UHGV virus genome: UHGV-0373904
Length of the DNA: 64,000 nt
From: a virus
Direction: 5' to 3' (one strand)
The notes beneath the pieces are model-generated. The model had not been told where the DNA came from, searched no databases, and was given only the letters and a program-made list of their open reading frames with translations. Made by a program: the position numbers and the translations under genes. This document shows, piece by piece, positions 14,419 to 21,303 of this stretch (within the stretch, counting starts at the first letter, position 1; each line of letters begins with the position of its first letter).

Positions 14419-15834
14419 ATGAGCGAGTTATTTAAACATGCGCACCTTCATGCAGGTCGAACTGAAAATGGTGCTGTAAACCATACTTCATCAATGTCTG
14501 CTCTTGTAGATTTTTACAAAGCTGCTGGTTCAAGCCGTAGCAATGTAGAAATCTTACCAGACTTGTTCTACAAAGCTTTGCGTGAGGATGTTGATGTTGC
14601 AGTTCGTATTTTGCTTCACATGCGAGATGTACGAGAAGGTATGGGTGAGCGTAAAGCCTTCAGAACTGTTTTACTTCAAGCAATCGAAGACAAAGTTTTA
14701 GAGCCTACACAGGTTCTTCGTATTATGGATAAGATTGCAGAACTTGGTCGTTTTGATGACTTCAAAATCTTCGTAGGTACTCGTTTTGAGACAGATGCCT
14801 TTAAGCATTTAGAAGCAGCATTACTAGACCATGAGACAGCAGGTTTAGCAGCCAAGTGGTTACCACGAGTAAAACCACGACACAAACAGTTTGTAAAACG
14901 TTTCTGCAAGTTTGCTAACTTGAGTGAGAAAGAGTACCGCACACTGCTATCTGCACTGTCTGATACGGTTGAGCAAAAAATCTCTGCTAATGAGTTTGGT
15001 AAGATTGATTACAGCAAGATTCCTTCACTTGCTGCTGCACGTTACCAAAAACTGTTTAACCGTAAAGATGGAGAGCGCTACAAAGCTTACATCGAGTCCT
15101 TATCAAAGGGTGAGACTAAGATTAATGCTGGTGCTGTTTACCCATACGATGTGATTAAATCTGTTAAGTATGGTAATGCAGATGTTGCTAATGAGCAGTG
15201 GAAAGCACTACCAAACTGGATGGCAGAGGGTGAAAACATTCTATGTATGTCTGATGTTTCAAGTTCAATGTCTTGGGTGAATTTTGGTTCAATTACTGCT
15301 CTTGATATTGGTGTTTCACTTGCATTGTATGTAGCAGAACGTAATACAGGTTGCTTTAAGAATGAGTTGATGGTTTATTCAACAAACCCTCACTTCATTG
15401 AACTGAGTGGTGATTTACGAAACCGTCATCGTCAGGTAATGCGTCATGTTGAATACGGTTCAACTAACTTACAAGCAGCTTTTGACCGCATTCTTGAGAC
15501 AGGTAAGAGAAACAACTTGACTCAGAAAGATATGCCAAGTAAGCTTATCATCTTCTCTGATATGGAGTTCAATCAGGTTGACGGTGCAAATGGTCGTACA
15601 AACTTTGAAGCAATTCGTAGTAAGTACAAAAAAGCTGGATACGAAATGCCACAACTGGTATTCTGGTACTTAGCAAACCGTAGTGGTACTTGCGAAGTAT
15701 CTGTTAAGGATAACGGTGTAGCAATGGTATCAGGGTTCTCTCCAGCCACTTTAAAAGCTCTTCTTGGTGGTGAGAAGTTTGACCCAATCAGCGTAATGCT
15801 CAAAGCAGTAATGATTGACCGTTACATCTGGTAA
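14419..15834 (+). CDS. vWA-like (MIDAS motif) domain protein, 471 aa; TROVE/Ro60-like RNA-binding protein is a hypothesis
   Basis: C-terminal half has DxSxS in ILCMSDVSSSMS followed by hydrophobic strands (LIIFSDMEF); N-terminal ~260 aa looks helical. Sits directly upstream of the tRNA array. Confidence 0.55.
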   Translation: MSELFKHAHLHAGRTENGAVNHTSSMSALVDFYKAAGSSRSNVEILPDLFYKALREDVDVAVRILLHMRDVREGMGERKAFRTVLLQAIEDKVLEPTQVLRIMDKIAELGRFDDFKIFVGTRFETDAFKHLEAALLDHETAGLAAKWLPRVKPRHKQFVKRFCKFANLSEKEYRTLLSALSDTVEQKISANEFGKIDYSKIPSLAAARYQKLFNRKDGERYKAYIESLSKGETKINAGAVYPYDVIKSVKYGNADVANEQWKALPNWMAEGENILCMSDVSSSMSWVNFGSITALDIGVSLALYVAERNTGCFKNELMVYSTNPHFIELSGDLRNRHRQVMRHVEYGSTNLQAAFDRILETGKRNNLTQKDMPSKLIIFSDMEFNQVDGANGRTNFEAIRSKYKKAGYEMPQLVFWYLANRSGTCEVSVKDNGVAMVSGFSPATLKALLGGEKFDPISVMLKAVMIDRYIW

Positions 15835-15999: not shown

Positions 16000-16076
16000 C
16001 TCTGTTTAGCTCAGCTTGGTAGAGCGTTCCGTTTGGGGCGGTAAGGCCGGAGGTTCAAGTCCTCCAACAGAGACCA
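16000..16076 (+). tRNA. tRNA-Pro (anticodon TGG)
   Basis: Manual fold: acceptor ctctgtt/aacagag, T-arm ggagg-ttcaagt-cctcc, anticodon loop ttTGGgg, encoded CCA. Confidence 0.75.
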
Positions 16077-16083
16077 AATTAAT

Positions 16084-16161
16084 GTTCCAGTAGACAAAAT
16101 GGTAAAGTCACCACTCTTTCAAAGTGGATATCTGAGGGTTCAAATCCCTTCTGGAACGCCA
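16084..16161 (+). tRNA. tRNA-Glu (anticodon TTC)
   Basis: Acceptor gttccag/ctggaac, anticodon stem ccact/agtgg, loop ctTTCaa, T-loop ttcaaat, CCA. Confidence 0.8.
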
Positions 16162-16162
16162 G

Positions 16163-16252
16163 TTTTGACAGAAGACCAATTACAGCAAACTTAATCTTAT
16201 TCATCTGAAGGTAAATCGGACAAAGAAGAGATTTGGTCTGGTCATTAAGAAT
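16163..16252 (+). repeat. tRNA-array spacer element copy 1 (CAGAAGACCAAT...ATTTGGTCTGG hairpin-bounded)
   Basis: 5' cagaagaccaattacagcaa and 3' tttggtctgg can pair (agaccaa/ttggtct). Confidence 0.55.
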
Positions 16253-16329
16253 TGCGGGTATAGAGAAAGGGCGTCTCACATGTCTCATTAGCATGGTATC
16301 GGCAGGTTCGACTCCTGCACCCGCCTCCA
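16253..16329 (+). tRNA. tRNA with anticodon CAT (Met or Ile2/lysidine type)
   Basis: Acceptor tgcgggt/acccgcc (1:72 mismatch), anticodon stem catgt/gcatg, loop ctCATta, T-arm gcagg-ttcgact-cctgc, CCA. Confidence 0.65.
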
Positions 16330-16330
16330 A

Positions 16331-16403
16331 TTTTGCAGAAGACCGTATTCAGCAACAAAATACTTTTGCGGATAAAAGAAAAAACACGGTCTGGCAATGT
16401 ATT
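16331..16403 (+). repeat. tRNA-array spacer element copy 2 (CAGAAGACCGT...ACGGTCTGG)
   Basis: Same flanking motif with compensatory change (agaccg/cggtct). Confidence 0.55.
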
Positions 16404-16405
16404 AA

Positions 16406-16482
16406 GGTTAGGAAGCACATAAGGTATGTGCGGTCGCCTGTTAAGCGAATGGCACAGGGTTCGAATCCCTGACTAACCGCCA
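16406..16482 (+). tRNA. tRNA-Asn (anticodon GTT)
   Basis: Acceptor ggttagg/actaacc, D-stem gcac/gtgc, anticodon loop ctGTTaa, T-arm caggg-ttcgaat-ccctg, CCA. Confidence 0.8.
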
Positions 16483-16490
16483 AATTAAAT

Positions 16491-16578
16491 GTGTCGTTAT
16501 CCCGTAGATGGTAGCGGTGGGGACTGTAAATCCCTTGTCATTGAGACTCGGTAGGTTCGACTCCTACACGGCACACCA
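16491..16578 (+). tRNA. tRNA-Tyr (anticodon GTA), long variable arm
   Basis: Acceptor gtgtcgt/acggcac, anticodon stem gggga/tccct, loop ctGTAaa, 15-nt variable arm, T-arm gtagg-ttcgact-cctac, CCA. Confidence 0.8.
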
Positions 16579-16583
16579 ATAAA

Positions 16584-16660
16584 GGCTATGTAGTTTAACT
16601 GGAGAAAATACTCCCCTGTCACGGGAGATGATGTGAGTTCAAGTCTCATCGTAGCCGCCA
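16584..16660 (+). tRNA. tRNA-Asp (anticodon GTC)
   Basis: Acceptor ggctatg/cgtagcc, anticodon stem ctccc/gggag, loop ctGTCac, CCA. Confidence 0.8.
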
Positions 16661-16720
16661 ATTTTGAGAGGGCTATTTAGCCCCTCCCTTAAAGGGTTCT
16701 TACGAGTATCCTTTAAAGGA

Positions 16721-16800
16721 GCAGAAGACCAAATACAGCAAGAACGTATGAAAATTTCAAGCCAATTTAATTTTGAAAAATTTAAAACTTGGTCTGGCTC
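16721..16800 (+). repeat. tRNA-array spacer element copy 3 (CAGAAGACCAAATACAGCAA...TTGGTCTGG)
   Basis: Same motif; preceded by terminator-like hairpin agggc-tattta-gccct and a TTAAAGG..CCTTTAA palindrome (16661-16716). Confidence 0.55.
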
Positions 16801-16940
16801 AACAAATTTACAGAAGACCGTTTACAGCAAAACTTAAACAATCTATTTCTCGGTAAAGAAAAGGCGAAGGTTCGATTCCTTCACTCGGCAGATGTCGAGT
16901 TGGTGTAATGGTAGCACTTAAGATGATAAACAACGGTCTG
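16801..16940 (+). repeat. tRNA-array spacer element copy 4 (CAGAAGACCGTTTACAGCAA...AACGGTCTGG) enclosing tRNA-like fragments
   Basis: 8-bp closing stem agaccgtt/aacggtct; the interior holds a T-arm plus 3' acceptor-like segment next to a 5' acceptor plus D-arm-like segment. Confidence 0.55.
16863..16920 (+). pseudogene. tRNA-like fragments (T-arm gaagg-ttcgatt-ccttc plus actcggc, then gtcgagt plus D-arm-like tggtgtaatggtagcac)
   Basis: A canonical T-arm with 3' acceptor-like strand is followed 4 nt later by a complementary 5' acceptor-like strand and a D-arm; no complete cloverleaf could be folded in normal order. Confidence 0.4.
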
Positions 16941-17090
16941 GTAATTATCTTTGTAGATAAGTTATTAAGCTTACCTGTGAGTATGCGACCACAAAGGGTG
17001 AAAGGGTAAATTCTAGATTTAAACCCAAAAAGGCACATCGCTACAGACCTTAAGCAAGTCTGGGTAGCTTATCTGCAAAGATAATTTAAT

Positions 17091-17166
17091 GGAAGTGTAG
17101 CAGAATGGTGATGCGGCAGACTTTTAATCTGACAGGCGATGGGTTCGAATCCCTCCACTTCTACCA
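17091..17166 (+). tRNA. tRNA-Lys (anticodon TTT)
   Basis: Acceptor ggaagtg/cacttct, anticodon stem gcaga/tctga (one mismatch), loop ctTTTaa, T-loop ttcgaat, CCA. Confidence 0.7.
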
Positions 17167-17244
17167 AATTCACCCTTAACTGAGAAACACCTGCGCGGCT
17201 GGAAACACCCACTCAACAGTTTCTCTAACTAGGGTACTTATTCT

Positions 17245-17321
17245 GGTTCAGTCGCAGATAAGGTAATGCAGGGGTTTCATAAGCCCTATGAATGTGGGTT
17301 CGATTCCCATCTGAACCTCCA
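17245..17321 (+). tRNA. tRNA-Met (anticodon CAT); GGG/CCC in the anticodon stem is initiator-like
   Basis: Acceptor ggttcag/ctgaacc, anticodon stem ggggt/gccct, loop ttCATaa, T-arm gtggg-ttcgatt-cccat, CCA. Confidence 0.75.
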
Positions 17322-17322
17322 A

Positions 17323-17398
17323 GCTGGTATAGTTAAGAAGGTTATAACACTCCCCTGATAAGGGAACATCGGTGGTTCGATTCCACCTACCAGCACCA
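17323..17398 (+). tRNA. tRNA-Ile (anticodon GAT)
   Basis: Acceptor gctggta/taccagc, anticodon loop ctGATaa, T-arm ggtgg-ttcgatt-ccacc, CCA. Confidence 0.75.
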
Positions 17399-17413
17399 AT
17401 TTCAATAAAGTTG

Positions 17414-17442
17414 TTGACATTGAGATGTGACTACTTTATAGT
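17414..17442 (+). promoter_or_regulatory. Sigma70-type promoter inside the tRNA array (TTGACA-N17-TATAGT)
   Basis: aaagttgTTGACAttgagatgtgactacttTATAGT. Confidence 0.65.
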
Positions 17443-17445
17443 AAC

Positions 17446-17733
17446 TAAAACACTTCATAATATGTATAATTCAAACACCAATACATGAGCGTTAGACGTA
17501 ACACAATGTGGGGAAATTTGTTGTACATATTCTGAATAGTTTTCGTTGCGTAGCGTCTATTTTGAAAATTTAAAATAAATGCAAACGACAATGTTTTTCT
17601 GGCAGTAGCTTGATAGGCTAAACACCAGTGAGGTCTTCCAATCCCTCATCAAAGAATTTGGCGTACTCGCCCACGGTATGATTAATAAGGTGGGCATCTT
17701 TAAGGGCTTTCTAAGAGAGTCTTTAAAGATAAT
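17446..17733 (+). other. ORF-poor 290-nt segment downstream of a promoter inside the tRNA array; candidate non-coding RNA locus
   Basis: No tRNA fold found, no ORF of 60 aa or more; lies between promoter 17414-17442 and tRNA-Arg. Confidence 0.35.
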
Positions 17734-17810
17734 GCACCCTTAGTTCAATTGGATAGAGCAACGGTCTTCTAAATCGTTAGTTACAGGTTCGAATCCTGTA
17801 GGGTGTACCA
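17734..17810 (+). tRNA. tRNA-Arg (anticodon TCT)
   Basis: Acceptor gcaccct/agggtgt, D-arm gttcaattggatagagc, anticodon stem acggt/atcgt, loop ctTCTaa, T-arm acagg-ttcgaat-cctgt, CCA. Confidence 0.8.
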
Positions 17811-17952
17811 AATAGTTAGCAGATTACTTAGACGGCCTTAGCGGGTCTTCCTGTAGGGAGGTGGTCTGTATCTCATGTTTTCCAGAACATGTAAATAATC
17901 TGAGAAGAGGCTTGACAGTGTTGAGATAACAGGGTAAGCTTCGAATTATAAT

Positions 17953-18035
17953 ATGGGACGATGTTAAGACTCTAAGGCATGAGCAACGGCCTCCAAAACC
18001 GTTTCAAAGGGGTTCAACTCCTCCGTCCCATGCCA
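17953..18035 (+). tRNA. Non-canonical tRNA-like gene (possible anticodon CCA, Trp) with expanded D region and enlarged anticodon loop
   Basis: Perfect 7-bp acceptor atgggac/gtcccat plus GCCA end and T-arm agggg-ttcaact-cctcc; anticodon stem aacgg/ccgtt encloses a 9-nt loop cctccaaaa; D region is about 6 nt too long to fold canonically. Confidence 0.4.
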
Positions 18036-18048
18036 AAGTCTTATTAGG

Positions 18049-18136
18049 GGTAGGTAGCGGCTAATGGTAGCCAAACTGTCTTGAAAACAGTTGCCACTGT
18101 AGAGATACGGTGAGGGTTCGACTCCTTTACTTACCG
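18049..18136 (+). tRNA. tRNA-Ser (anticodon TGA), class II with long variable arm
   Basis: Acceptor ggtaggt/acttacc, anticodon stem actgt/acagt, loop ctTGAaa, ~20-nt variable arm, T-loop ttcgact; CCA not encoded. Confidence 0.75.
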
Positions 18137-18289
18137 CCTAATAAGATTTACTCCGTCCATGCTTGTTCGCATTGTCGGTTTATCCCTCGTGTATTGTCGT
18201 ACACTGTCAAAGCACCTAGTAGGTGTCACGGAGAAGAGATAATATCAAGCTCTCCAAAGGTTCTAGTCACCGGATTAAACAAGACTATG

Positions 18290-18312
18290 CAAAGACCTAT
18301 TTAGGTCTTTTT
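18290..18312 (+). terminator. Rho-independent terminator inside the tRNA array
   Basis: agaccta-ttt-aggtct perfect hairpin followed by ttttt. Confidence 0.6.
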
Positions 18313-18391
18313 AGAGGGCTTCTAAGGTTATTACAGCTTGTTGTGGAACCTTGTTGCTTAGGTTCTTAGAAGTTCTCTAAAAAGATTTAAT

Positions 18392-18468
18392 GCACCTATA
18401 GCCCAACTGGTAGAGGCAGCAGACTTAGAATCTGCTCAGTGTGAGTTCGAATCTCTCTAGGTGTACCA
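18392..18468 (+). tRNA. tRNA with anticodon TAG (Leu by code) but short variable region
   Basis: Acceptor gcaccta/taggtgt (close paralog of tRNA-Arg TCT), anticodon stem gcaga/tctgc, loop ctTAGaa, 5-nt variable region, T-loop ttcgaat, CCA. Confidence 0.6.
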
Positions 18469-18475
18469 AATTAAT

Positions 18476-18551
18476 GCAGGTGTAGCAAAATGGTTATGCG
18501 GCTGACTCTTAATCAGTAAGACGATGGGTTCAATTCCCTCCACCTGTACCA
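18476..18551 (+). tRNA. tRNA-Lys (anticodon CTT)
   Basis: Acceptor gcaggtg/cacctgt, anticodon stem gctga/tcagt, loop ctCTTaa, T-loop ttcaatt, CCA; paralog of tRNA-Lys TTT. Confidence 0.65.
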
Positions 18552-18557
18552 AACATT

Positions 18558-18633
18558 GGGGTCATAGTTTATATGGTTAAAATTCGAGTTTTGCAAACTT
18601 GGGAACTGAGTTCAATTCTCAGTGACTCCACCA
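18558..18633 (+). tRNA. tRNA-Ala (anticodon TGC)
   Basis: Acceptor ggggtca/tgactcc (G3-U70), anticodon stem cgagt/acttg, loop ttTGCaa, T-arm ctgag-ttcaatt-ctcag, CCA. Confidence 0.75.
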
Positions 18634-18639
18634 ATTAGT

Positions 18640-18714
18640 GCATCCATAGTTTAAACGGGAAAATTACAGTCTTCCAAACTGAGGTTGAGGGTTCGATTCC
18701 CTCTGGATGCTCCA
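18640..18714 (+). tRNA. tRNA-Gly (anticodon TCC)
   Basis: Acceptor gcatcca/tggatgc, anticodon loop ctTCCaa, T-arm gaggg-ttcgatt-ccctc, CCA. Confidence 0.7.
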
Positions 18715-18721
18715 AATTAAT

Positions 18722-18797
18722 GCTCCTATCGTATAATTGGCTATTACGGTTGCCTTGTAAGCAACTTATCAGGGTTCGAATCCTTGTGGGAGCACCA
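18722..18797 (+). tRNA. tRNA-Thr (anticodon TGT)
   Basis: Acceptor gctccta/tgggagc, anticodon stem gttgc/gcaac, loop ctTGTaa, T-arm caggg-ttcgaat-ccttg, CCA. Confidence 0.8.
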
Positions 18798-18887
18798 ATT
18801 CAGAGGTCAAGTGAAAGACCGCTTTGAGTCAACTGAAGACCGTAACAAATTCCACGGAGTTGAGTTAGCGGCACAACTCCAGACCTC
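18793..18887 (+). repeat. Structured spacer (agaggtc ... gacctct outer stem, inner hairpin ggagttg..caactcc, GAAGACCG motif)
   Basis: Nested inverted repeats; contains ctgaagaccgtaacaaa related to the CAGAAGACC spacer family. Confidence 0.45.
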
Positions 18888-18893
18888 TTTCAT

Positions 18894-18968
18894 ACTCGCT
18901 TAGTTTATATGGTAAAACATCACCCTTACAAGATGAAGAAAAAGGTTCAAGTCCTTTAGTGAGTACCA
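18894..18968 (+). tRNA. tRNA-Val (anticodon TAC)
   Basis: Acceptor actcgct/agtgagt, D-stem gttt/aaac, anticodon loop ctTACaa, T-arm aaagg-ttcaagt-ccttt, CCA. Confidence 0.7.
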
Positions 18969-18969
18969 T

Positions 18970-19047
18970 GTTCCAGTATCCCAATTGGCAGAGGATGCAA
19001 GCTCAAACCTTGTACTAGTGACGGTTCGAATCCGTCTTGGAACACCA
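18970..19047 (+). tRNA. tRNA with anticodon CAA (Leu by code) but short variable region
   Basis: Acceptor gttccag/ttggaac, anticodon stem gcaag/cttgt, loop ctCAAac, 6-nt variable region, T-arm gacgg-ttcgaat-ccgtc, CCA. Confidence 0.65.
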
Positions 19048-19052
19048 ATTTT

Positions 19053-19128
19053 GCAGGATTAGTTCAAATGGATAGAGCAACAGTCTACGAAGCTGTTAGT
19101 AGGGGTTCGAATCCCTTATCCTGCGCCA
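19053..19128 (+). tRNA. tRNA-Arg (anticodon ACG)
   Basis: Acceptor gcaggat/atcctgc, anticodon stem acagt/gctgt, loop ctACGaa, T-loop ttcgaat, CCA. Confidence 0.75.
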
Positions 19129-19146
19129 GATAAGCAAGAGGAATTT

Positions 19147-19389
19147 ATGCAAACATTAATCGTCGTTGAACATGAAAATCCCAATAGTATTGAGTTTGTA
19201 AGGGTTCCCACTATAGATACTCACATTTTCTTGAAAGTCGGATGGGAATGCGACCCGATAAAAGTAGGAAAATTTCTTGGTCATTACTTTGGTGGAAGAC
19301 AATTTAAAAGTATCAATTTTGAGACAGTATTACCAGAAAACTCAGAAACAGACAATAATACTTACCTCCTTACGAGGATTAGACAATGA
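19147..19389 (+). CDS. Hypothetical protein (80 aa) embedded in the tRNA array
   Basis: ORF with upstream aagaggaa RBS-like sequence. Confidence 0.4.
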   Translation: MQTLIVVEHENPNSIEFVRVPTIDTHIFLKVGWECDPIKVGKFLGHYFGGRQFKSINFETVLPENSETDNNTYLLTRIRQ

Positions 19390-19943
19390 GATACTTAAAA
19401 TATGTTTCATGGATTTTCTTAGCTTTGTTAGAACCATTTGCAGCAACCCTAGCAGTCATCTTAGCACCTTTCGTAGTTCCATTCTACAGTGAGAAGAAAG
19501 GGCATCTACCTTTTGGATTCAGATGGACGGAGACCTATGACAACCCTATTGATGGTGACAAAGGCCACGTTGAGAGATGGGCTAAGATTAGAAAGATTGG
19601 TAAGCTTGGTGTCTACATGCAGAGAGTTGGATGGCTCTGGAGAAACAAAGCTTATAACTTCTCTTACCATGTATTAGGAAGAGATGTAAAAGACGTTACT
19701 AAGTGGAAAGGTAATATCAACGTAAGTTCTAACCCTGAAGATAATCAAACAGGTTATCTCCTAATGTGGAACAGTAATGCTTGGGGATTATTCGCTTTTA
19801 TCCCATCAATTAAAATCTTTGGTAAACAGTTTTACTGGAGAATTTATATTGGATGGAAACTTAAAAGTGTTGTCCCAGAAGAAAGAGCATTCTCAAGGGA
19901 AAGAGTTATGTTGGCATTCTTTATTCATCCACTGAGAAAGTAA
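19386..19943 (+). CDS. Hypothetical membrane protein (185 aa) embedded in the tRNA array
   Basis: N-terminal hydrophobic segment WIFLALLEPFAATLAVILAPFVVPF; 4-nt overlap with the upstream ORF. Confidence 0.45.
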   Translation: MRYLKYVSWIFLALLEPFAATLAVILAPFVVPFYSEKKGHLPFGFRWTETYDNPIDGDKGHVERWAKIRKIGKLGVYMQRVGWLWRNKAYNFSYHVLGRDVKDVTKWKGNINVSSNPEDNQTGYLLMWNSNAWGLFAFIPSIKIFGKQFYWRIYIGWKLKSVVPEERAFSRERVMLAFFIHPLRK

Positions 19944-19951
19944 AGATTTAA

Positions 19952-20027
19952 AGGGGATTAGTTTACAAGGTTAAAACCTCGGTCTTTGAAATCGAAGAAG
20001 TTGGTTCAATTCCAACATCCCCCGCCA
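19952..20027 (+). tRNA. tRNA-Gln (anticodon TTG)
   Basis: Acceptor aggggat/atccccc (1:72 mismatch), D-stem gttt/aaac, anticodon stem tcggt/atcga, loop ctTTGaa, T-arm gttgg-ttcaatt-ccaac, CCA. Confidence 0.7.
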
Positions 20028-20029
20028 AT

Positions 20030-20108
20030 GCTCCATTACTCCAATTGGCAGAGAGGCCAGACTTAAAATCTGTGTTATGTATCGGTTCGAATCCGATATG
20101 GAGTACCA
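20030..20108 (+). tRNA. tRNA with anticodon TAA (Leu by code) but short variable region
   Basis: Acceptor gctccat/atggagt, anticodon loop ctTAAaa, 7-nt variable region, T-arm atcgg-ttcgaat-ccgat, CCA; paralog of the CAA tRNA at 18970. Confidence 0.65.
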
Positions 20109-20113
20109 AATTT

Positions 20114-20189
20114 AGCGGTATAGCATAACTGGCAATGCAACAGTCTCTGAAGCTGTCCTATTAAGGTTCAAATCCTTATGCCGCTGCCA
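20114..20189 (+). tRNA. tRNA-Gln (anticodon CTG)
   Basis: Acceptor agcggta/tgccgct, D-stem gcat/atgc, anticodon stem acagt/gctgt, loop ctCTGaa, T-arm taagg-ttcaaat-cctta, CCA. Confidence 0.7.
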
Positions 20190-20220
20190 CTTCTAAGGAT
20201 TCTTACGAGAGTCCTTAAAT

Positions 20221-20296
20221 GTGGCCTTATCATAAAAGGTAATGACCCATGCTGTGAACATGGTCTATACGGGTTCAAATCCCGTAGGTCACCCCA
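20221..20296 (+). tRNA. tRNA-His (anticodon GTG)
   Basis: Acceptor gtggcct/aggtcac, D-stem tcat/atga, anticodon stem ccatg/catgg, loop ctGTGaa, T-arm acggg-ttcaaat-cccgt, CCA; no encoded G-1. Confidence 0.75.
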
Positions 20297-20301
20297 ATTT
20301 A

Positions 20302-20378
20302 TAGTCCAAGTAGCTTATATGGTTAAAGCGCGTGTCTGAAAAACATGAGAAGAGGGTTCAAATCCCACTGGACTACCA
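20302..20378 (+). tRNA. tRNA-Phe (anticodon GAA)
   Basis: Acceptor tagtcca/tggacta, anticodon stem cgtgt/acatg, loop ctGAAaa, T-loop ttcaaat. Confidence 0.7.
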
Positions 20379-20394
20379 ATTTCAAAGGTGCTTA

Positions 20395-21129
20395 ATGAAA
20401 GAGATGACAGAACAAGGTAAGGAGATTTTTAATCTCTTAAAAACTGGTAAAGGGTTTTCTAACCCCCTTATTACTGGTGCAGCAGTTCTCGGTGGAACCG
20501 TAGCTGCCTCTACATCACTTGTAAGCTCTATTAGCTCTGTATCAGACCCTACAGTAAAGGATAAGCTTGTTGCTGCTGGACTTACAACAGTTCTGCTTAA
20601 CAGCTTTACCACGAGTCTGACAAGCACTACATCAACTACCAAAACACTAACAGATTACGGTCAAAAGTCCATTGATGAGTTTTCATCACGTATGCAGGTA
20701 GCAAAAGGTTACTCTAATGTTATGGGTGCAGCAGGTGAACAAGTTGGCTGTACACCGTTTAGTGGTATTATGGGCGTTGCTACAGAATATGGTCAAAAAG
20801 CTATTGACACAATTAACAGTGCACTAGATGTCGTTAATGATGTATTAAGTGACTTACAAGATGCTATTGACAAAGGTCTTGATACTATTTCTGATTTAGC
20901 TAACCAAGCTGTTAGTAAGATTAATGAAGGTATTTCGAAGATTACAGCTTATGCAGATGAAGTTGTGCAGATGATTGAAGAAGAAGCTGCTCTTATTGCA
21001 GAGTACCTTAAAACGAATATCAATGGGTTCTTAGCAGGTATCTTACCAGACTGGTTTGATGATGCTTGTAAAACTGGTGTGATTGACACTATTGCAACAC
21101 CAGAAATGAAGAACGCATTACAGAAATAA
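20395..21129 (+). CDS. Hypothetical Ser/Thr-rich protein
   Basis: ORF track start 20332 lies inside tRNA-Phe; the ATG at 20395 is preceded by aaagg. Ser/Thr-rich low-complexity N-terminal region. Confidence 0.5.
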   Translation: MKEMTEQGKEIFNLLKTGKGFSNPLITGAAVLGGTVAASTSLVSSISSVSDPTVKDKLVAAGLTTVLLNSFTTSLTSTTSTTKTLTDYGQKSIDEFSSRMQVAKGYSNVMGAAGEQVGCTPFSGIMGVATEYGQKAIDTINSALDVVNDVLSDLQDAIDKGLDTISDLANQAVSKINEGISKITAYADEVVQMIEEEAALIAEYLKTNINGFLAGILPDWFDDACKTGVIDTIATPEMKNALQK

Positions 21130-21130
21130 T

Positions 21131-21223
21131 GGAAGATTAACCCTAAAAGGTAAGGGAGCAGTTTGCTAAACTGCCAGTAGCTGAGAAATCGGTGTACCAG
21201 TTCAAGTCTGGTATCTTCCTCCA
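21131..21223 (+). tRNA. tRNA-Ser (anticodon GCT), class II
   Basis: Acceptor ggaagat/atcttcc, anticodon stem gcagt/actgc, loop ttGCTaa, 21-nt variable arm, T-arm accag-ttcaagt-ctggt, CCA. Confidence 0.8.
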
Positions 21224-21227
21224 ATTT

Positions 21228-21303
21228 GAATCCGTGACAGAAATGGCTATGTGCCTGTCTGCAAAACAGGTTTATAAGGGTTCGAGTCCCTTCGGATTCT
21301 CCA
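21228..21303 (+). tRNA. tRNA-Cys (anticodon GCA)
   Basis: Acceptor gaatccg/cggattc, anticodon stem cctgt/acagg, loop ctGCAaa, T-arm aaggg-ttcgagt-ccctt, CCA. Confidence 0.8.

What the first reader, a model, noticed from the sequence alone, without database searches (positions are those of the whole stretch)
16000..21303. Large tRNA array (about 27 genes) with atypical members
By manual folding the array encodes tRNAs for nearly all amino acids, including two CAT tRNAs. Three tRNAs carry Leu-type anticodons (TAG 18392-18468, CAA 18970-19047, TAA 20030-20108) yet have only 5-7-nt variable regions instead of the long arm expected of tRNA-Leu. The TAG tRNA is a close paralog of tRNA-Arg(TCT) at 17734, and the CAA and TAA tRNAs are paralogs of each other. 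A further gene (17953-18035) has a perfect acceptor stem and CCA end but an oversized D region and a 9-nt anticodon loop. These could be anticodon-shifted derivatives of other isoacceptors with altered charging identity, frameshift-type tRNAs, or decoys.
Basis: partly seen in the sequence, partly recalled or inferred. Interest (0 to 1): 0.55.

Follow-up and report, generated by a model that had tools for sequence, protein, structure and literature searches.

The report
Felix O1-type phage tRNA array
This is the usual tRNA gene cluster of a Felix O1-like phage: its three short leucine tRNAs belong to a widespread short type that the host enzyme should still charge with leucine, and the one truly odd member is a conserved, never-annotated tryptophan-type tRNA.

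Summary
ARAGORN finds 26 tRNA genes at 16000-21303. A 27th tRNA-like gene lies at 17953-18035. The three Leu-anticodon tRNAs are 77-79 nt with 5-7-nt variable loops.

The identity-switch reading is not supported. All three keep the features E. coli LeuRS uses: A73, A15/U48, G18G19 and the 3-bp D stem with loop CAAYUGGYAGA. The long arm and anticodon are not E. coli leucine identity elements. The same short design occurs throughout Ounavirinae, in an Aeromonas T5-like phage, in at least 119 IMG/VR contigs, and as single chromosomal genes in Actinomycetota. Ser and Tyr tRNAs stay long. Published tRNAscan-SE isotype scores for near-identical Mooglevirus genes rank Leu first. Their anticodons read UUA, UUG and CUA; UUA and CUA are over-used by the phage.

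The Trp-like gene is real and unusual. It occurs in 236 phage records and none annotates it as a tRNA. Eight of its 20 pairs show compensatory changes. CCA, G73 and the 3' CCA never vary. It has a 9-nt anticodon loop, as T5 tRNA-Trp does, and a 9-nt connector where tRNAs have two.

In passing: the array gaps hold four Y-RNA-like elements, one a permuted tRNA mimic, downstream of a Ro60-fold gene.

The parts
16000..21303 (+). tRNA gene array of a Felixounavirus: 26 ARAGORN tRNAs, one non-canonical Trp-type gene, three small ORFs and several non-coding gaps
   Evidence: 96% identical to Escherichia phage pEP20. 216 phage records cover at least 80% of the array.
18392..18468 (+). tRNA-Leu(UAG), 77 nt, 5-nt variable loop, 3-bp D stem with loop CAACUGGUAGA, A73, CCA encoded
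   Evidence: The same slot in Suspvirus and Mooglevirus holds an unrelated short Leu(UAG) gene (55.7% identity).
18970..19047 (+). tRNA-Leu(CAA), 78 nt, 6-nt variable loop, D loop CAAUUGGCAGA, A73
   Evidence: It differs by 1 nt from the SUSP2 and Sf15 genes.
20030..20108 (+). tRNA-Leu(UAA), 79 nt, 7-nt variable loop, D loop CAAUUGGCAGA, A73
   Evidence: At least 99% identical in 216 phage records.
17953..18035 (+). Non-canonical tRNA-Trp-like gene. Features: A1-U72, G73, encoded CCA, anticodon CCA in a 9-nt loop, a 9-nt acceptor-to-D connector GAUGUUAAG, a 3-bp D stem and a 5-bp T stem with an A.C first pair.
   Evidence: present in 236 phage records, none of which annotates it as a tRNA. 8 of 20 pairs show compensatory changes and 94% of cells are paired.
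17734..17810 (+). tRNA-Arg(UCU), the proposed relative of Leu(UAG). It has a 4-bp D stem and loop AAUUGGAUA (A20). Its discriminator is A73 here and G73 in relatives.
16253..16329 (+). First CAU tRNA. It has a U1.C72 mismatch, U73 and U37. The Rfam tRNA model does not recognise it.
   Evidence: Isotype scores for the Sf14 orthologue are inconsistent.
17245..17321 (+). Second CAU tRNA, 2 nt upstream of tRNA-Ile(GAU). Its isotype (Met, fMet or Ile2) was not resolved.
16491..16578 (+). tRNA-Tyr, 88 nt, keeps its long variable arm
18049..18138 (+). tRNA-Ser(UGA), 90 nt, keeps its long variable arm
21131..21223 (+). tRNA-Ser(GCU), 93 nt, keeps its long variable arm
16810..16941 (+). E4: a permuted tRNA-like (YrlA-like) RNA module. 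In order: an anticodon-like hairpin, a T arm, a capped acceptor-like hairpin and a D arm, all closed by the helix AGACCGUU/AACGGUCU.
   Evidence: The acceptor-like hairpin is replaced by a different complementary sequence in SUSP2 and Sf15.
16168..16241 (+). E1: a short element with the same 5' motif RCAGAAGACCNNNUWCAGCAA and the same 3' GGUCUGG closing helix
16335..16394 (+). E2: same element type; its closing helix covaries (CGU/ACG)
16721..16797 (+). E3: same element type
14419..15834 (+). Ro60-fold protein gene (DUF2828 + DUF7788, phrog_850 'RNA-binding protein'), ending about 165 nt before the first tRNA gene
   Evidence: The AF2 model has pLDDT 85. Foldseek hits Ro60 of Thermus phage phiLo, Xenopus Ro60 and Deinococcus Rsr (E 1e-7 to 2e-6, TM up to 0.66).

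Best explanation
The region is the standard tRNA gene array of a Felix O1-like (Felixounavirus) phage of enterobacteria.

The three Leu-anticodon genes are genuine leucine tRNAs of a short-variable-loop design, not re-purposed tRNAs. They keep what bacterial LeuRS reads: discriminator A73, the A15/U48 pair, and G18G19 in a Leu-type D loop on a 3-bp D stem, with a normal T loop. LeuRS of E. coli uses neither the anticodon nor the long variable arm, so they should be leucylated by the host enzyme. That step is inferred, not shown. They would then read UUA, UUG and CUA. The AT-rich phage uses UUA and CUA about twice as often as the host.

The long arm is lost only in the one long-arm family whose synthetase does not need it. 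Ser and Tyr tRNAs keep theirs.

The gene at 17953-18035 is most likely the phage's own non-canonical tRNA-Trp. It supplies the one amino acid otherwise missing from the array and keeps the TrpRS determinants CCA and G73. It has an expanded 9-nt anticodon loop and an enlarged acceptor-to-D connector, so its efficiency and exact role are uncertain.
For: Identity of the region:
- 96% identity to Felixounavirus genomes, with 369 phage records matching.

Structure and identity elements of the Leu tRNAs:
- All three have A73, U at the last variable position, and a 3-bp D stem with the 11-nt loop CAAYUGGYAGA. The five E. coli tRNA-Leu have RAAUYGGUAGA, a 3-bp stem and A73.
- The review PMC9976931 states that in E. 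coli A73, A15-U48, G18G19, A20a and the D/T tertiary contacts define leucine identity. It also states that the anticodon and long arm do not, and that arm-less tRNA-Leu variants stay active.
- ArgRS determinants are absent from the TAG tRNA.

Distribution:
- Every Leu tRNA in the six other Ounavirinae phage genomes sampled is 77-79 nt, while Ser is 89-93 nt and Tyr 83-89 nt. Acceptor and anticodon stems differ but stay paired.
- Three 77-nt Leu tRNAs occur in the Aeromonas phage AhP_Mru1 (Demerecviridae).
- There are 161 unique short Leu tRNAs in 119 IMG/VR contigs. 94% have A73 and 160 of 161 have U48; neither feature was part of the search pattern.
- There are 145 short Leu tRNAs in 120 cellular loci, and 87 pattern matches lie in loci with no other tRNA. 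The examples printed (Nocardia, Mycobacterium, Rhodococcus, Gordonia) have the D arm UAGCCCAAUUGGCAGAGGC.

Isotype and decoding:
- tRNAscan-SE isotype scores published for Sf14 put Leu first: 49.1, 60.2 and 67.4.
- Codon usage, phage versus E. coli sample: UUA 0.29 vs 0.14, CUA 0.11 vs 0.04, CUG 0.14 vs 0.44.
- TTA, TTG and CTA codons in a conserved gene align with Leu in 45-58% of distant homologues, against an 8% background.

Trp-like gene:
- Present in 236 records.
- 8 of 20 pairs are compensatory, no shuffle of 500 reaches the observed values, and slid controls give 27-52% paired.
- CCA anticodon, G73 and the 3' CCA are invariant.
- ARAGORN finds no tRNA-Trp in the window, and the Sf14 paper counts 19 amino acids for that related array.
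- T5's annotated tRNA-Trp has the same C-CUCCAAA-A loop.
Against: - No aminoacylation or expression data exist for these genes. Charging by LeuRS and TrpRS is inferred from identity rules.
- For the window's own TAG tRNA no isotype-model score is available, because the Sf14 TAG gene is a different sequence. In Sf14 the Leu score (67.4) is barely above Ile2 (65.7).
- Plain sequence identity of the D region to a 17-tRNA E. coli panel does not single out Leu.
- Bas63 tRNAs were mostly dispensable on laboratory hosts, so any benefit is conditional.
- For the Trp-like gene, the 9-nt connector should disturb the U8-A14 core, the first T-stem pair is A.C in all copies, and both tRNA finders reject it.
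Confidence: 0.78

Rival explanations
1. The Leu-anticodon tRNAs are anticodon-shifted derivatives of other isoacceptors (for example Arg) and are charged with a non-leucine amino acid, recoding Leu codons.
For: TAG and Arg(TCT) share 5 of 7 acceptor pairs and are 71.6% identical overall. Both have G1.U72 and A73 in this window.
Against: - The D arm, variable loop and T arm of the TAG tRNA are of the Leu type, and it is 75% identical to a Nocardia chromosomal tRNA-Leu.
- It lacks A20 and C35, the ArgRS determinants.
- Relatives carry G73 in Arg(TCT) but A73 in every Leu tRNA sampled from Ounavirinae.
- Leu codons sit at conserved Leu positions.
- Isotype models rank Leu first for the orthologues.
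Confidence: 0.03
2. The short arm was selected, not merely tolerated. Removing the variable arm (together with the altered anticodon-loop positions 32, 37 and 38) would make the phage Leu tRNAs invisible to a host or phage tRNA-targeting nuclease or toxin that recognises long-arm (class II) tRNAs. Translation would then continue when host tRNA-Leu is attacked.
For: - Short Leu tRNAs recur in unrelated phage lineages.
- The Sf14 paper lists anticodon-loop differences from host tRNA-Leu at positions 32, 37 and 38.
- The toxin MenT3 uses a long variable loop as an anchor on tRNA-Ser.
- Phage tRNAs are known counter-defence tools (literature cited).
Against: - No nuclease specific for the tRNA-Leu variable arm is known in enterobacteria.
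- Actinomycetota carry the same short design as ordinary chromosomal genes, which shows it needs no defence context.
- 28 viral contigs carry both short and long Leu tRNAs.
Confidence: 0.12
3. The 17953-18035 gene is not a working tRNA-Trp. It could be a decaying pseudo-tRNA. It could instead be a tRNA-like RNA with another role: a partner of the Ro60-like protein, a decoy, or a +1/+2 frameshifting tRNA by virtue of its 9-nt loop.
For: - ARAGORN rejects it, and Rfam RF00005 gives no hit while tRNA-Sec scores only 23 bits.
- It has a 9-nt connector, a conserved 31.39 mismatch (C.A, or C.C in Arno18) and an A.C pair in the T stem.
- A Ro60-fold gene and tRNA-mimic RNAs lie in the same cluster.
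Against: - Compensatory changes in all four helices argue against a pseudogene.
- The invariant CCA anticodon, G73 and 3' CCA fit TrpRS recognition.
- It fills the only missing amino acid.
- T5's annotated tRNA-Trp shares the loop.
- No frameshift or readthrough candidates were seen in the window.
Confidence: 0.3

Closest known systems
Short-variable-loop tRNA-Leu of Actinomycetota and of mycobacterial tRNA clusters
   Same: - Length 74-78 nt with a 5-nt variable loop ending in U.
- U8 A9, then a 3-bp D stem with loop CAAUUGGCAGA.
- A73 and Leu anticodons.
- The D arm UAGCCCAAUUGGCAGAGGC differs from the window's Leu(UAG) D arm at only two loop positions.
- The literature notes in passing that only three of the M. 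tuberculosis tRNA-Leu have long loops. It also notes that a cluster-encoded mycobacterial tRNA-Leu(TAG) has a short loop.
   Different: Here the genes sit in a phage array of a Gram-negative host whose own five tRNA-Leu are all long-armed (85-87 nt). The variable loops are 5, 6 and 7 nt rather than a uniform 5.
E. coli tRNA-Leu (long-arm, class II) and its arm-less minimal variants
   Same: A73, A15/U48, the G18G19 placement, a 3-bp D stem with an 11-nt loop, and the T loop UUCGAAU. Arm-less variants are still leucylated according to the review.
   Different: There is no long variable arm. Positions 8-9 are UA rather than UG, position 13 is C, and the anticodon loop starts with C32 and ends AA or AC.
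Bacteriophage T5 tRNA region (tRNA-Trp and 'tRNA-like stable RNAs')
   Same: - A large array of phage tRNAs interspersed with small ORFs and stable RNAs of unknown function.
- T5 tRNA-Trp has the same 5-bp stem closing the loop C-CUCCAAA-A, and ARAGORN also misses it.
   Different: T5 keeps a long-arm tRNA-Leu (85 nt). Its tRNA-Trp is shortened (71 nt, tiny D arm), whereas the window gene is lengthened (83 nt, extra connector). The two are 58% identical.
YrlA-type bacterial Y RNAs with Ro60/Rsr
   Same: E4 has a T arm, a D arm and a capped acceptor-like stem in permuted order. Its 5' and 3' ends form a helix, and it lies about 1 kb from a Ro60-fold gene. The shorter companions E1-E3 recall YrlB.
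   Different: Rfam YrlA does not score it. The proposed Ro-binding motif GNCGAAN0-1G is only approximated by GCAGAAG. The protein is DUF2828 rather than Pfam TROVE by sequence.

Membership tests
tRNA-Leu recognised by bacterial (E. coli-type) LeuRS | Discriminator A73 | tested here: met
   All three window genes have A73. So do all other Leu tRNAs sampled from Ounavirinae, and 152 of 161 short viral Leu tRNAs.
tRNA-Leu recognised by bacterial (E. coli-type) LeuRS | A15-U48 pair, G18G19 placement and A20a in the D loop (review PMC9976931) | tested here: met
   By sequence only. The loop C-A-A-Y-U-G-G-Y-A-G-A matches E. coli R-A-A-U-Y-G-G-U-A-G-A position for position, and the last variable base is U in all.
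tRNA-Leu recognised by bacterial (E. coli-type) LeuRS | T-loop residues for the G18:U55, G19-C56 and U54:A58 contacts | tested here: met
   The T loop is UUCGAAU in all three.
tRNA-Leu recognised by bacterial (E. coli-type) LeuRS | Long variable arm (the long-arm, class II shape) | tested here: not met
   The variable loops are 5, 6 and 7 nt. According to the review this arm is not a leucine identity element in E. coli, so its absence bears on shape class, not on charging.
tRNA-Leu recognised by bacterial (E. coli-type) LeuRS | Actual leucylation and use in translation | not testable with these tools
   Only indirect evidence: codon usage, Leu codons at conserved Leu sites, and published isotype-model scores for orthologues.
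tRNA-Arg (for the TAG tRNA) | A20 and C35, the ArgRS determinants | tested here: not met
   The TAG tRNA has U after G19 and A35. The array's two Arg tRNAs have GGAUA (A20) and C35.
Canonical tRNA-Trp | Anticodon CCA and discriminator G73 | tested here: met
   Invariant in 8 of 8 distinct sequences.
Canonical tRNA-Trp | A1-U72 pair (the E. coli feature) | tested here: met
   A-U in 7 of 8 sequences, G-C in Arno18.
Canonical tRNA-Trp | 7-nt anticodon loop closed by a 31-39 pair | tested here: not met
   C.A in 7 sequences and C.C in Arno18, while the five stem pairs covary. 48 of 51 ARAGORN-called phage tRNA-Trp have the pair.
Canonical tRNA-Trp | Two-nucleotide connector (positions 8-9) and recognition by general tRNA models | tested here: not met
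   The connector is 9 nt (11 in Arno18). ARAGORN makes no call, RF00005 gives no hit, and tRNA-Sec scores 23 bits against a gathering score of 47.
Frameshift-suppressor tRNA | Expanded (8-9-nt) anticodon loop | tested here: met
   The 9-nt loop is conserved.
Frameshift-suppressor tRNA | Genes that need quadruplet decoding or frameshifting at UGG-containing sites | tested here: inconclusive
   Only readthrough of stop codons was screened, and nothing notable was found. No frameshift-site search was done.
YrlA-type Y RNA (element E4) | tRNA-like domain (T arm, D arm, capped acceptor-like stem) with the RNA ends forming a helix | tested here: met
   Shown by the minimum-energy fold (z = -2.1), a partial RF00005 alignment, and replacement of the hairpin by a different complementary sequence in SUSP2 and Sf15.
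YrlA-type Y RNA (element E4) | Encoded next to a Ro60 orthologue | tested here: met
   The Ro60-fold ORF is at 14419-15834 and E1-E4 lie 0.3-1.1 kb downstream.
YrlA-type Y RNA (element E4) | Match to the curated model RF02553 and the GNCGAAN0-1G motif | tested here: not met
   There is no RF02553 hit at E <= 10. The motif is only approximated by GCAGAAG.
YrlA-type Y RNA (element E4) | Binding to the Ro60-like protein | not testable with these tools
   Needs RIP-seq or gel shift.

The most novel reading that the evidence does not exclude
The array would be more than a codon-supply cluster. Under this reading the four repeated elements E1-E4, including the permuted tRNA mimic E4, are the missing Y RNAs of the phage Ro60 homologue. 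In Bas63 that protein is gp130, which counters the Ppl defence. The unannotated 83-nt Trp-type RNA with its 9-nt anticodon loop would have a specialised job, such as non-standard decoding or acting as a decoy or ligand, rather than being a plain tRNA-Trp. Felix O1-like phages would then carry a Ro60/Y-RNA ribonucleoprotein system embedded in their tRNA array.
Probability: 0.3. Interest if true: 0.6.

Novelty: new member of a known kind. Interest (0 to 1): 0.35.

Why it matters
- Annotators and readers should not treat short-armed Leu tRNAs in phages as mis-folds, pseudogenes or identity switches. They form a coherent, widespread family.
- That family is a natural counterpart of the in vitro result that E. 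coli LeuRS needs neither the anticodon nor the long arm. Only Leu loses the arm; Ser and Tyr, whose synthetases use it, do not.
- Two things in the array may be worth experiments. One is a conserved Trp-type tRNA that standard tRNA finders miss in more than 200 deposited genomes. If it works, the array covers all 20 amino acids rather than 19.
- The other is the set of candidate Y RNAs for the phage Ro60 homologue, a protein recently linked to counter-defence. The Bas63 authors only guessed that such RNAs were hidden among the tRNA genes.

Tried and rejected
- Percent identity of the D region (positions 8-26) against a 17-tRNA E. coli panel did not discriminate Leu from Trp, Gly or Arg. The loop architecture and sequence, not raw identity, carry the signal.
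- tRNAscan-SE isotype models were not available. I used published scores for the Sf14 orthologues instead, and these do not cover the window's own TAG gene.
- Lowering ARAGORN thresholds or allowing introns did not recover the Trp-like gene and only produced spurious calls.
- A regular-expression screen for Trp anticodon arms with a 31.39 mismatch was too noisy. It was replaced by a count on ARAGORN-called tRNAs.
- Rfam YrlA did not score E4 even on a 171-nt search.
- A profile search of PDB sequences gave Ro60 only at E = 0.84. The fold search was needed.
- Sigma-70-like sites in the array are no more frequent than in shuffles, 14 against 13.0, so transcription units were not defined.
- A stop-codon readthrough screen gave nothing convincing.
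- Four literature searches for a description of short-armed phage tRNA-Leu found only passing remarks.
- Whether phages lacking the Ro60-like gene (phiEa104, Arno18) also lack the E elements genome-wide was not settled. Only the array loci were checked.

Full report
**What the window is.** The 5.3-kb stretch is 94-97% identical to the tRNA region of many Felix O1-like phages. The best match is Escherichia phage pEP20 at 96.4%. In all, 369 phage records match and 216 of them cover at least 80% of the stretch. GC content is about 40%. The array lies between a 471-aa ORF (14419-15834) and the large terminase gene, as in annotated relatives.

**Check of the observation.** ARAGORN finds 26 tRNA genes, all on the + strand, from 16000 to 21303. 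Rfam's tRNA model confirms 24 of them above threshold.

The three Leu-anticodon genes are at the stated coordinates. They are 77, 78 and 79 nt long with variable regions of 5, 6 and 7 nt. The array's Tyr (88 nt) and Ser (90 and 93 nt) tRNAs keep long arms.

An all-against-all comparison of the 26 genes gives a mean identity of 57.7% (sd 5.1). CAA/TAA reach 72.5%, the third-highest pair. TAG/Arg(TCT) reach 71.6%, but TAG/Lys(TTT) reach 70.9% and TAG/Leu(TAA) 70.0%. The first paralogy claim holds. The second is overstated: the resemblance is highest in the acceptor stem (80% identity, against 76% in the D region and 61% in the T arm).

The gene at 17953-18035 has the described perfect acceptor stem, G73-CCA end, oversized D region and 9-nt loop. 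ARAGORN and Rfam RF00005 both fail to call it.

**What the Leu tRNAs are.** I fetched the five E. coli K-12 tRNA-Leu isoacceptors and other host tRNAs and split all genes into domains.

- Every E. coli tRNA-Leu has U8 G9, a 3-bp D stem, the 11-nt loop RAAUYGGUAGA, U48 and A73.
- The three phage genes have U8 A9, a 3-bp D stem, the loop CAAYUGGYAGA, U at the last variable position, the T loop UUCGAAU and A73.
- The array's Arg tRNAs have a 4-bp D stem, the loop AAWUGGAUA (A20) and C35.

The 2023 review of tRNA identity states the rule for E. coli. A73, the A15-U48 pair, G18G19, A20a and the D/T-loop contacts are the leucine determinants. The anticodon and the long variable arm are not, and tRNA-Leu variants lacking the arm remain active (PMC9976931). 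The three genes therefore keep what LeuRS reads and lack what ArgRS reads. Charging itself is inferred, not shown.

**Conservation and distribution.** All Leu tRNAs are 77-79 nt in the six other Ounavirinae phage genomes sampled: pEP20, FG1m, SUSP2, Sf15, phiEa104 and Arno18. Ser and Tyr stay long, and acceptor and anticodon stems differ between lineages yet stay paired.

The TAA gene is at least 99% identical in 216 records. The TAG slot is filled by two unrelated short Leu(UAG) genes in different genera (55.7% identity).

Outside the subfamily, the Aeromonas phage AhP_Mru1 (Demerecviridae) has three 77-nt Leu tRNAs of the same build. T5 itself keeps an 85-nt one.

A pattern scan of IMG/VR hit its 120-locus limit. 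ARAGORN found 161 unique Leu tRNAs of 74-80 nt in 119 loci, with all six Leu anticodons. Of these, 94% have A73 and 160 of 161 have U48. Neither feature was in the pattern. Ser and Tyr in the same loci remain long, and 28 loci carry both short and long Leu tRNAs.

The same scan of cellular genomes also hit its limit. It returned 145 short Leu tRNAs, mostly from Actinomycetota and mostly alone in their locus: 87 pattern matches lie in loci with a single tRNA. The examples printed (Nocardia, Mycobacterium, Rhodococcus, Gordonia) have the D arm UAGCCCAAUUGGCAGAGGC and variable loops such as ACAGU. The window's Leu(UAG) D arm differs from this at only two loop positions.

The literature mentions this only in passing. 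Only three of the M. tuberculosis tRNA-Leu are said to have long loops. A cluster-encoded mycobacterial tRNA-Leu(TAG) is noted as short-looped. I found no paper that describes the phage family as such.

**Function of the Leu tRNAs.** The phage uses UUA (0.29 vs 0.14), CUA (0.11 vs 0.04) and CUU (0.28 vs 0.13) more than an E. coli gene sample does. It uses CUG far less (0.14 vs 0.44). It also uses AGA more (0.42 vs 0.07), and the array has a tRNA-Arg(UCU) for that codon.

In the conserved Ro60-like gene, TTA, TTG and CTA codons align with Leu in 45-58% of residues from homologues at most 64% identical. The background Leu frequency is 8%. These codons therefore mean leucine.

A 2025 study of Mooglevirus Sf14 ran tRNAscan-SE isotype models. 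Sf14 was not fetched here; the CAA and TAA genes of its Mooglevirus relative Sf15 differ from the window's by one base each. Leu was the top score for Leu_CAA (49.1), Leu_TAA (60.2) and Leu_TAG (67.4), and that paper never mentions the variable arm. The caveat is that the window's TAG gene is a different sequence from Sf14's.

The simplest reading is that loss of the arm is tolerated only where the cognate synthetase does not need it. A selective reason, such as escape from a factor that recognises long-arm (class II) tRNAs, is possible but has no direct support.

**The Trp-type gene.** BLAST finds it in 236 phage records. None annotates it as a tRNA; it is either unannotated or overlapped by a 'hypothetical protein'.

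Eight distinct sequences were aligned: window, pEP20, SUSP2, Sf15, FG1m, Sf17, Moogle and Arno18. On a four-helix cloverleaf, 94.4% of cells are paired and 8 of 20 pairs carry compensatory double changes. No shuffle of 500 reaches these values. Slid controls give 27-52% paired and no compensatory pair.

- The anticodon stem changes wholesale: AACGG/CCGUU, GUAAG/CUUAC and GUAGG/CCUAC.
- The flanking 31.39 position stays unpaired (C.A, or C.C in Arno18), so the 9-nt loop C-YUCCAAM-M (consensus C-CUCCAAA-A) is real.
- CCA, G73 and the 3' CCA are invariant.
- The D arm is near normal: 3 bp, covarying CUC/GAG to CAC/GUG, with an 8-nt loop containing GG.
- The excess length is a 9-nt connector, GAUGUUAAG, between the acceptor and D stems. 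It is invariant and is 11 nt in Arno18.

The T5 gene annotated as tRNA-Trp has the same loop on an AUGGG/CCCAU stem, and ARAGORN also misses it. phiEa104 has a canonical 76-nt tRNA-Trp. Among 51 ARAGORN-called phage tRNA-Trp genes, 48 have a normal 31-39 pair.

ARAGORN finds no tRNA-Trp among the 26 genes, and the Sf14 paper counts 19 amino acids for that array. The most economical reading is therefore a non-canonical phage tRNA-Trp. A decoy, Ro60-partner or frameshifting role is not excluded. A screen for stop-codon readthrough found nothing notable.

**What else is in the array.** Four gaps hold repeated elements: E1 16168-16241, E2 16335-16394, E3 16721-16797 and E4 16810-16941. Each starts with RCAGAAGACCNNNUWCAGCAA and ends with GGUCUGG. 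The ends form the helix AGACCNN/NNGGUCU, whose variable bases covary. The elements are conserved in pEP20, SUSP2, Sf15 and FG1m. They are absent from the array loci of phiEa104, Arno18, T5 and AhP_Mru1.

E4 folds into a permuted tRNA (z = -2.1). In order it has an anticodon-like hairpin, the T arm GAAGG-UUCGAUU-CCUUC, a capped acceptor-like hairpin ACUCGGC-AGAU-GUCGAGU and the D arm. In SUSP2 and Sf15 the acceptor-like hairpin is replaced by ACACG-UUACGG-CGUGU. Rfam's tRNA model aligns the first half of E4 as a 5'-truncated tRNA.

This is the topology described for YrlA-type Y RNAs. However, the Rfam YrlA model does not score it.

The ORF just upstream (14419-15834) carries DUF2828 and DUF7788 and matches phrog_850 'RNA-binding protein'. 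Its AlphaFold model has pLDDT 85. The best structural matches are Ro60 of Thermus phage phiLo, Xenopus Ro60 and Deinococcus Rsr, with E 1e-7 to 2e-6 and TM up to 0.66.

A 2024 preprint on the Felixounavirus Bas63 reports that the equivalent protein, gp130, is Ro60-like and counters the Ppl defence. It speculates that some annotated tRNA genes might be Y RNAs, and it finds the tRNAs mostly dispensable on laboratory hosts. The candidates found here lie between the tRNA genes, not among them.

**Verdict.** The array is a known feature of a well-known phage group. The three short Leu tRNAs are ordinary members of a widespread but little-discussed short-armed tRNA-Leu family, and there is no evidence of altered identity. 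The conserved, unannotated Trp-type tRNA with a 9-nt anticodon loop is the one atypical member that deserves an experiment. The Y-RNA-like elements next to the Ro60-fold gene are the most promising lead seen in passing.

Noticed in passing
window 16168-16241, 16335-16394, 16721-16797, 16810-16941: Four repeated non-coding elements between tRNA genes. Each has the 5' motif RCAGAAGACCNNNTWCAGCAA, a 3' GGTCTGG and a covarying closing helix. The longest (E4) is a permuted tRNA mimic: T arm, capped acceptor-like hairpin, then D arm, the topology of YrlA-type Y RNAs.
   Followed up: partly
window 14419-15834 (+): The ORF just upstream of the array (DUF2828/DUF7788) has the Ro60 fold. It matches Ro60 of Thermus phage phiLo, Xenopus Ro60 and Deinococcus Rsr. 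Homologues occur in 710 phage records, including mycobacteriophage 'Ro-like RNA binding protein'. The Bas63 homologue gp130 is reported to counter the Ppl defence.
   Followed up: yes
window 16253-16329 (+): The first CAU tRNA has a U1.C72 mismatch, U73 and U at position 37. It gets no Rfam tRNA hit even at E <= 10. Published isotype scores for its Sf14 orthologue are inconsistent (Cys above Met). Whether it acts as an initiator, an elongator Met or an Ile2 tRNA is unresolved.
   Followed up: partly
window 17572-17667 (+), downstream of the sigma-70-like site at 17414-17442: A non-coding stretch between tRNA-Ile and tRNA-Arg(UCU) matches about-157-kb Kuttervirus-size Salmonella phages (bering, UTK0004) at 80-84%, where it is unannotated. 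It follows the best promoter-like site of the region (11 of 12 matches) and may be a small RNA.
   Followed up: no
window 18722-18797 (+): Most of tRNA-Thr(UGU), about 80 nt, is 96% identical to tRNA-Thr of about-145-kb phages (Antha, VEcB, JLBYU50). This suggests exchange of single tRNA genes between unrelated phage groups.
   Followed up: no
L014 (Salmonella phage FG1m) 4999-5076: This Leu(CAA) gene is a chimera. Its 5' part is the CAA tRNA and its T arm and 3' acceptor strand come from the TAA tRNA. That implies a deletion by recombination between the two paralogues, and it leaves a mismatched acceptor stem.
   Followed up: no
window 17734-17810 (+): tRNA-Arg(UCU) has discriminator A73 in this window, but G73 in pEP20, SUSP2, Sf15 and phiEa104.
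   Followed up: no
L003 (SUSP2) 2046-2170 and 2400-2577: SUSP2 has two extra inserts flanking the Trp-like gene. They contain T-arm and acceptor-like sequences ending in GCCA, and ARAGORN does not call them. They may be further non-canonical tRNA-like genes.
   Followed up: no
window 16690-16716, 17696-17730, 18301-18390, 20190-20220: Similar hairpins of the type CTTTAAGGG...TCTTTAAAG / TTCTTACGAG lie just upstream of several tRNA genes or blocks. They may be processing or regulatory hairpins.
   Followed up: no
L139-L258 (cellular genomes): Single-copy chromosomal tRNA-Leu(UAA/CAA/UAG) genes of 74-78 nt with a 5-nt variable loop are common in Actinomycetota. Genera include Nocardia, Rhodococcus, Mycobacterium, Corynebacterium, Arthrobacter and Bifidobacterium.
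   Followed up: partly
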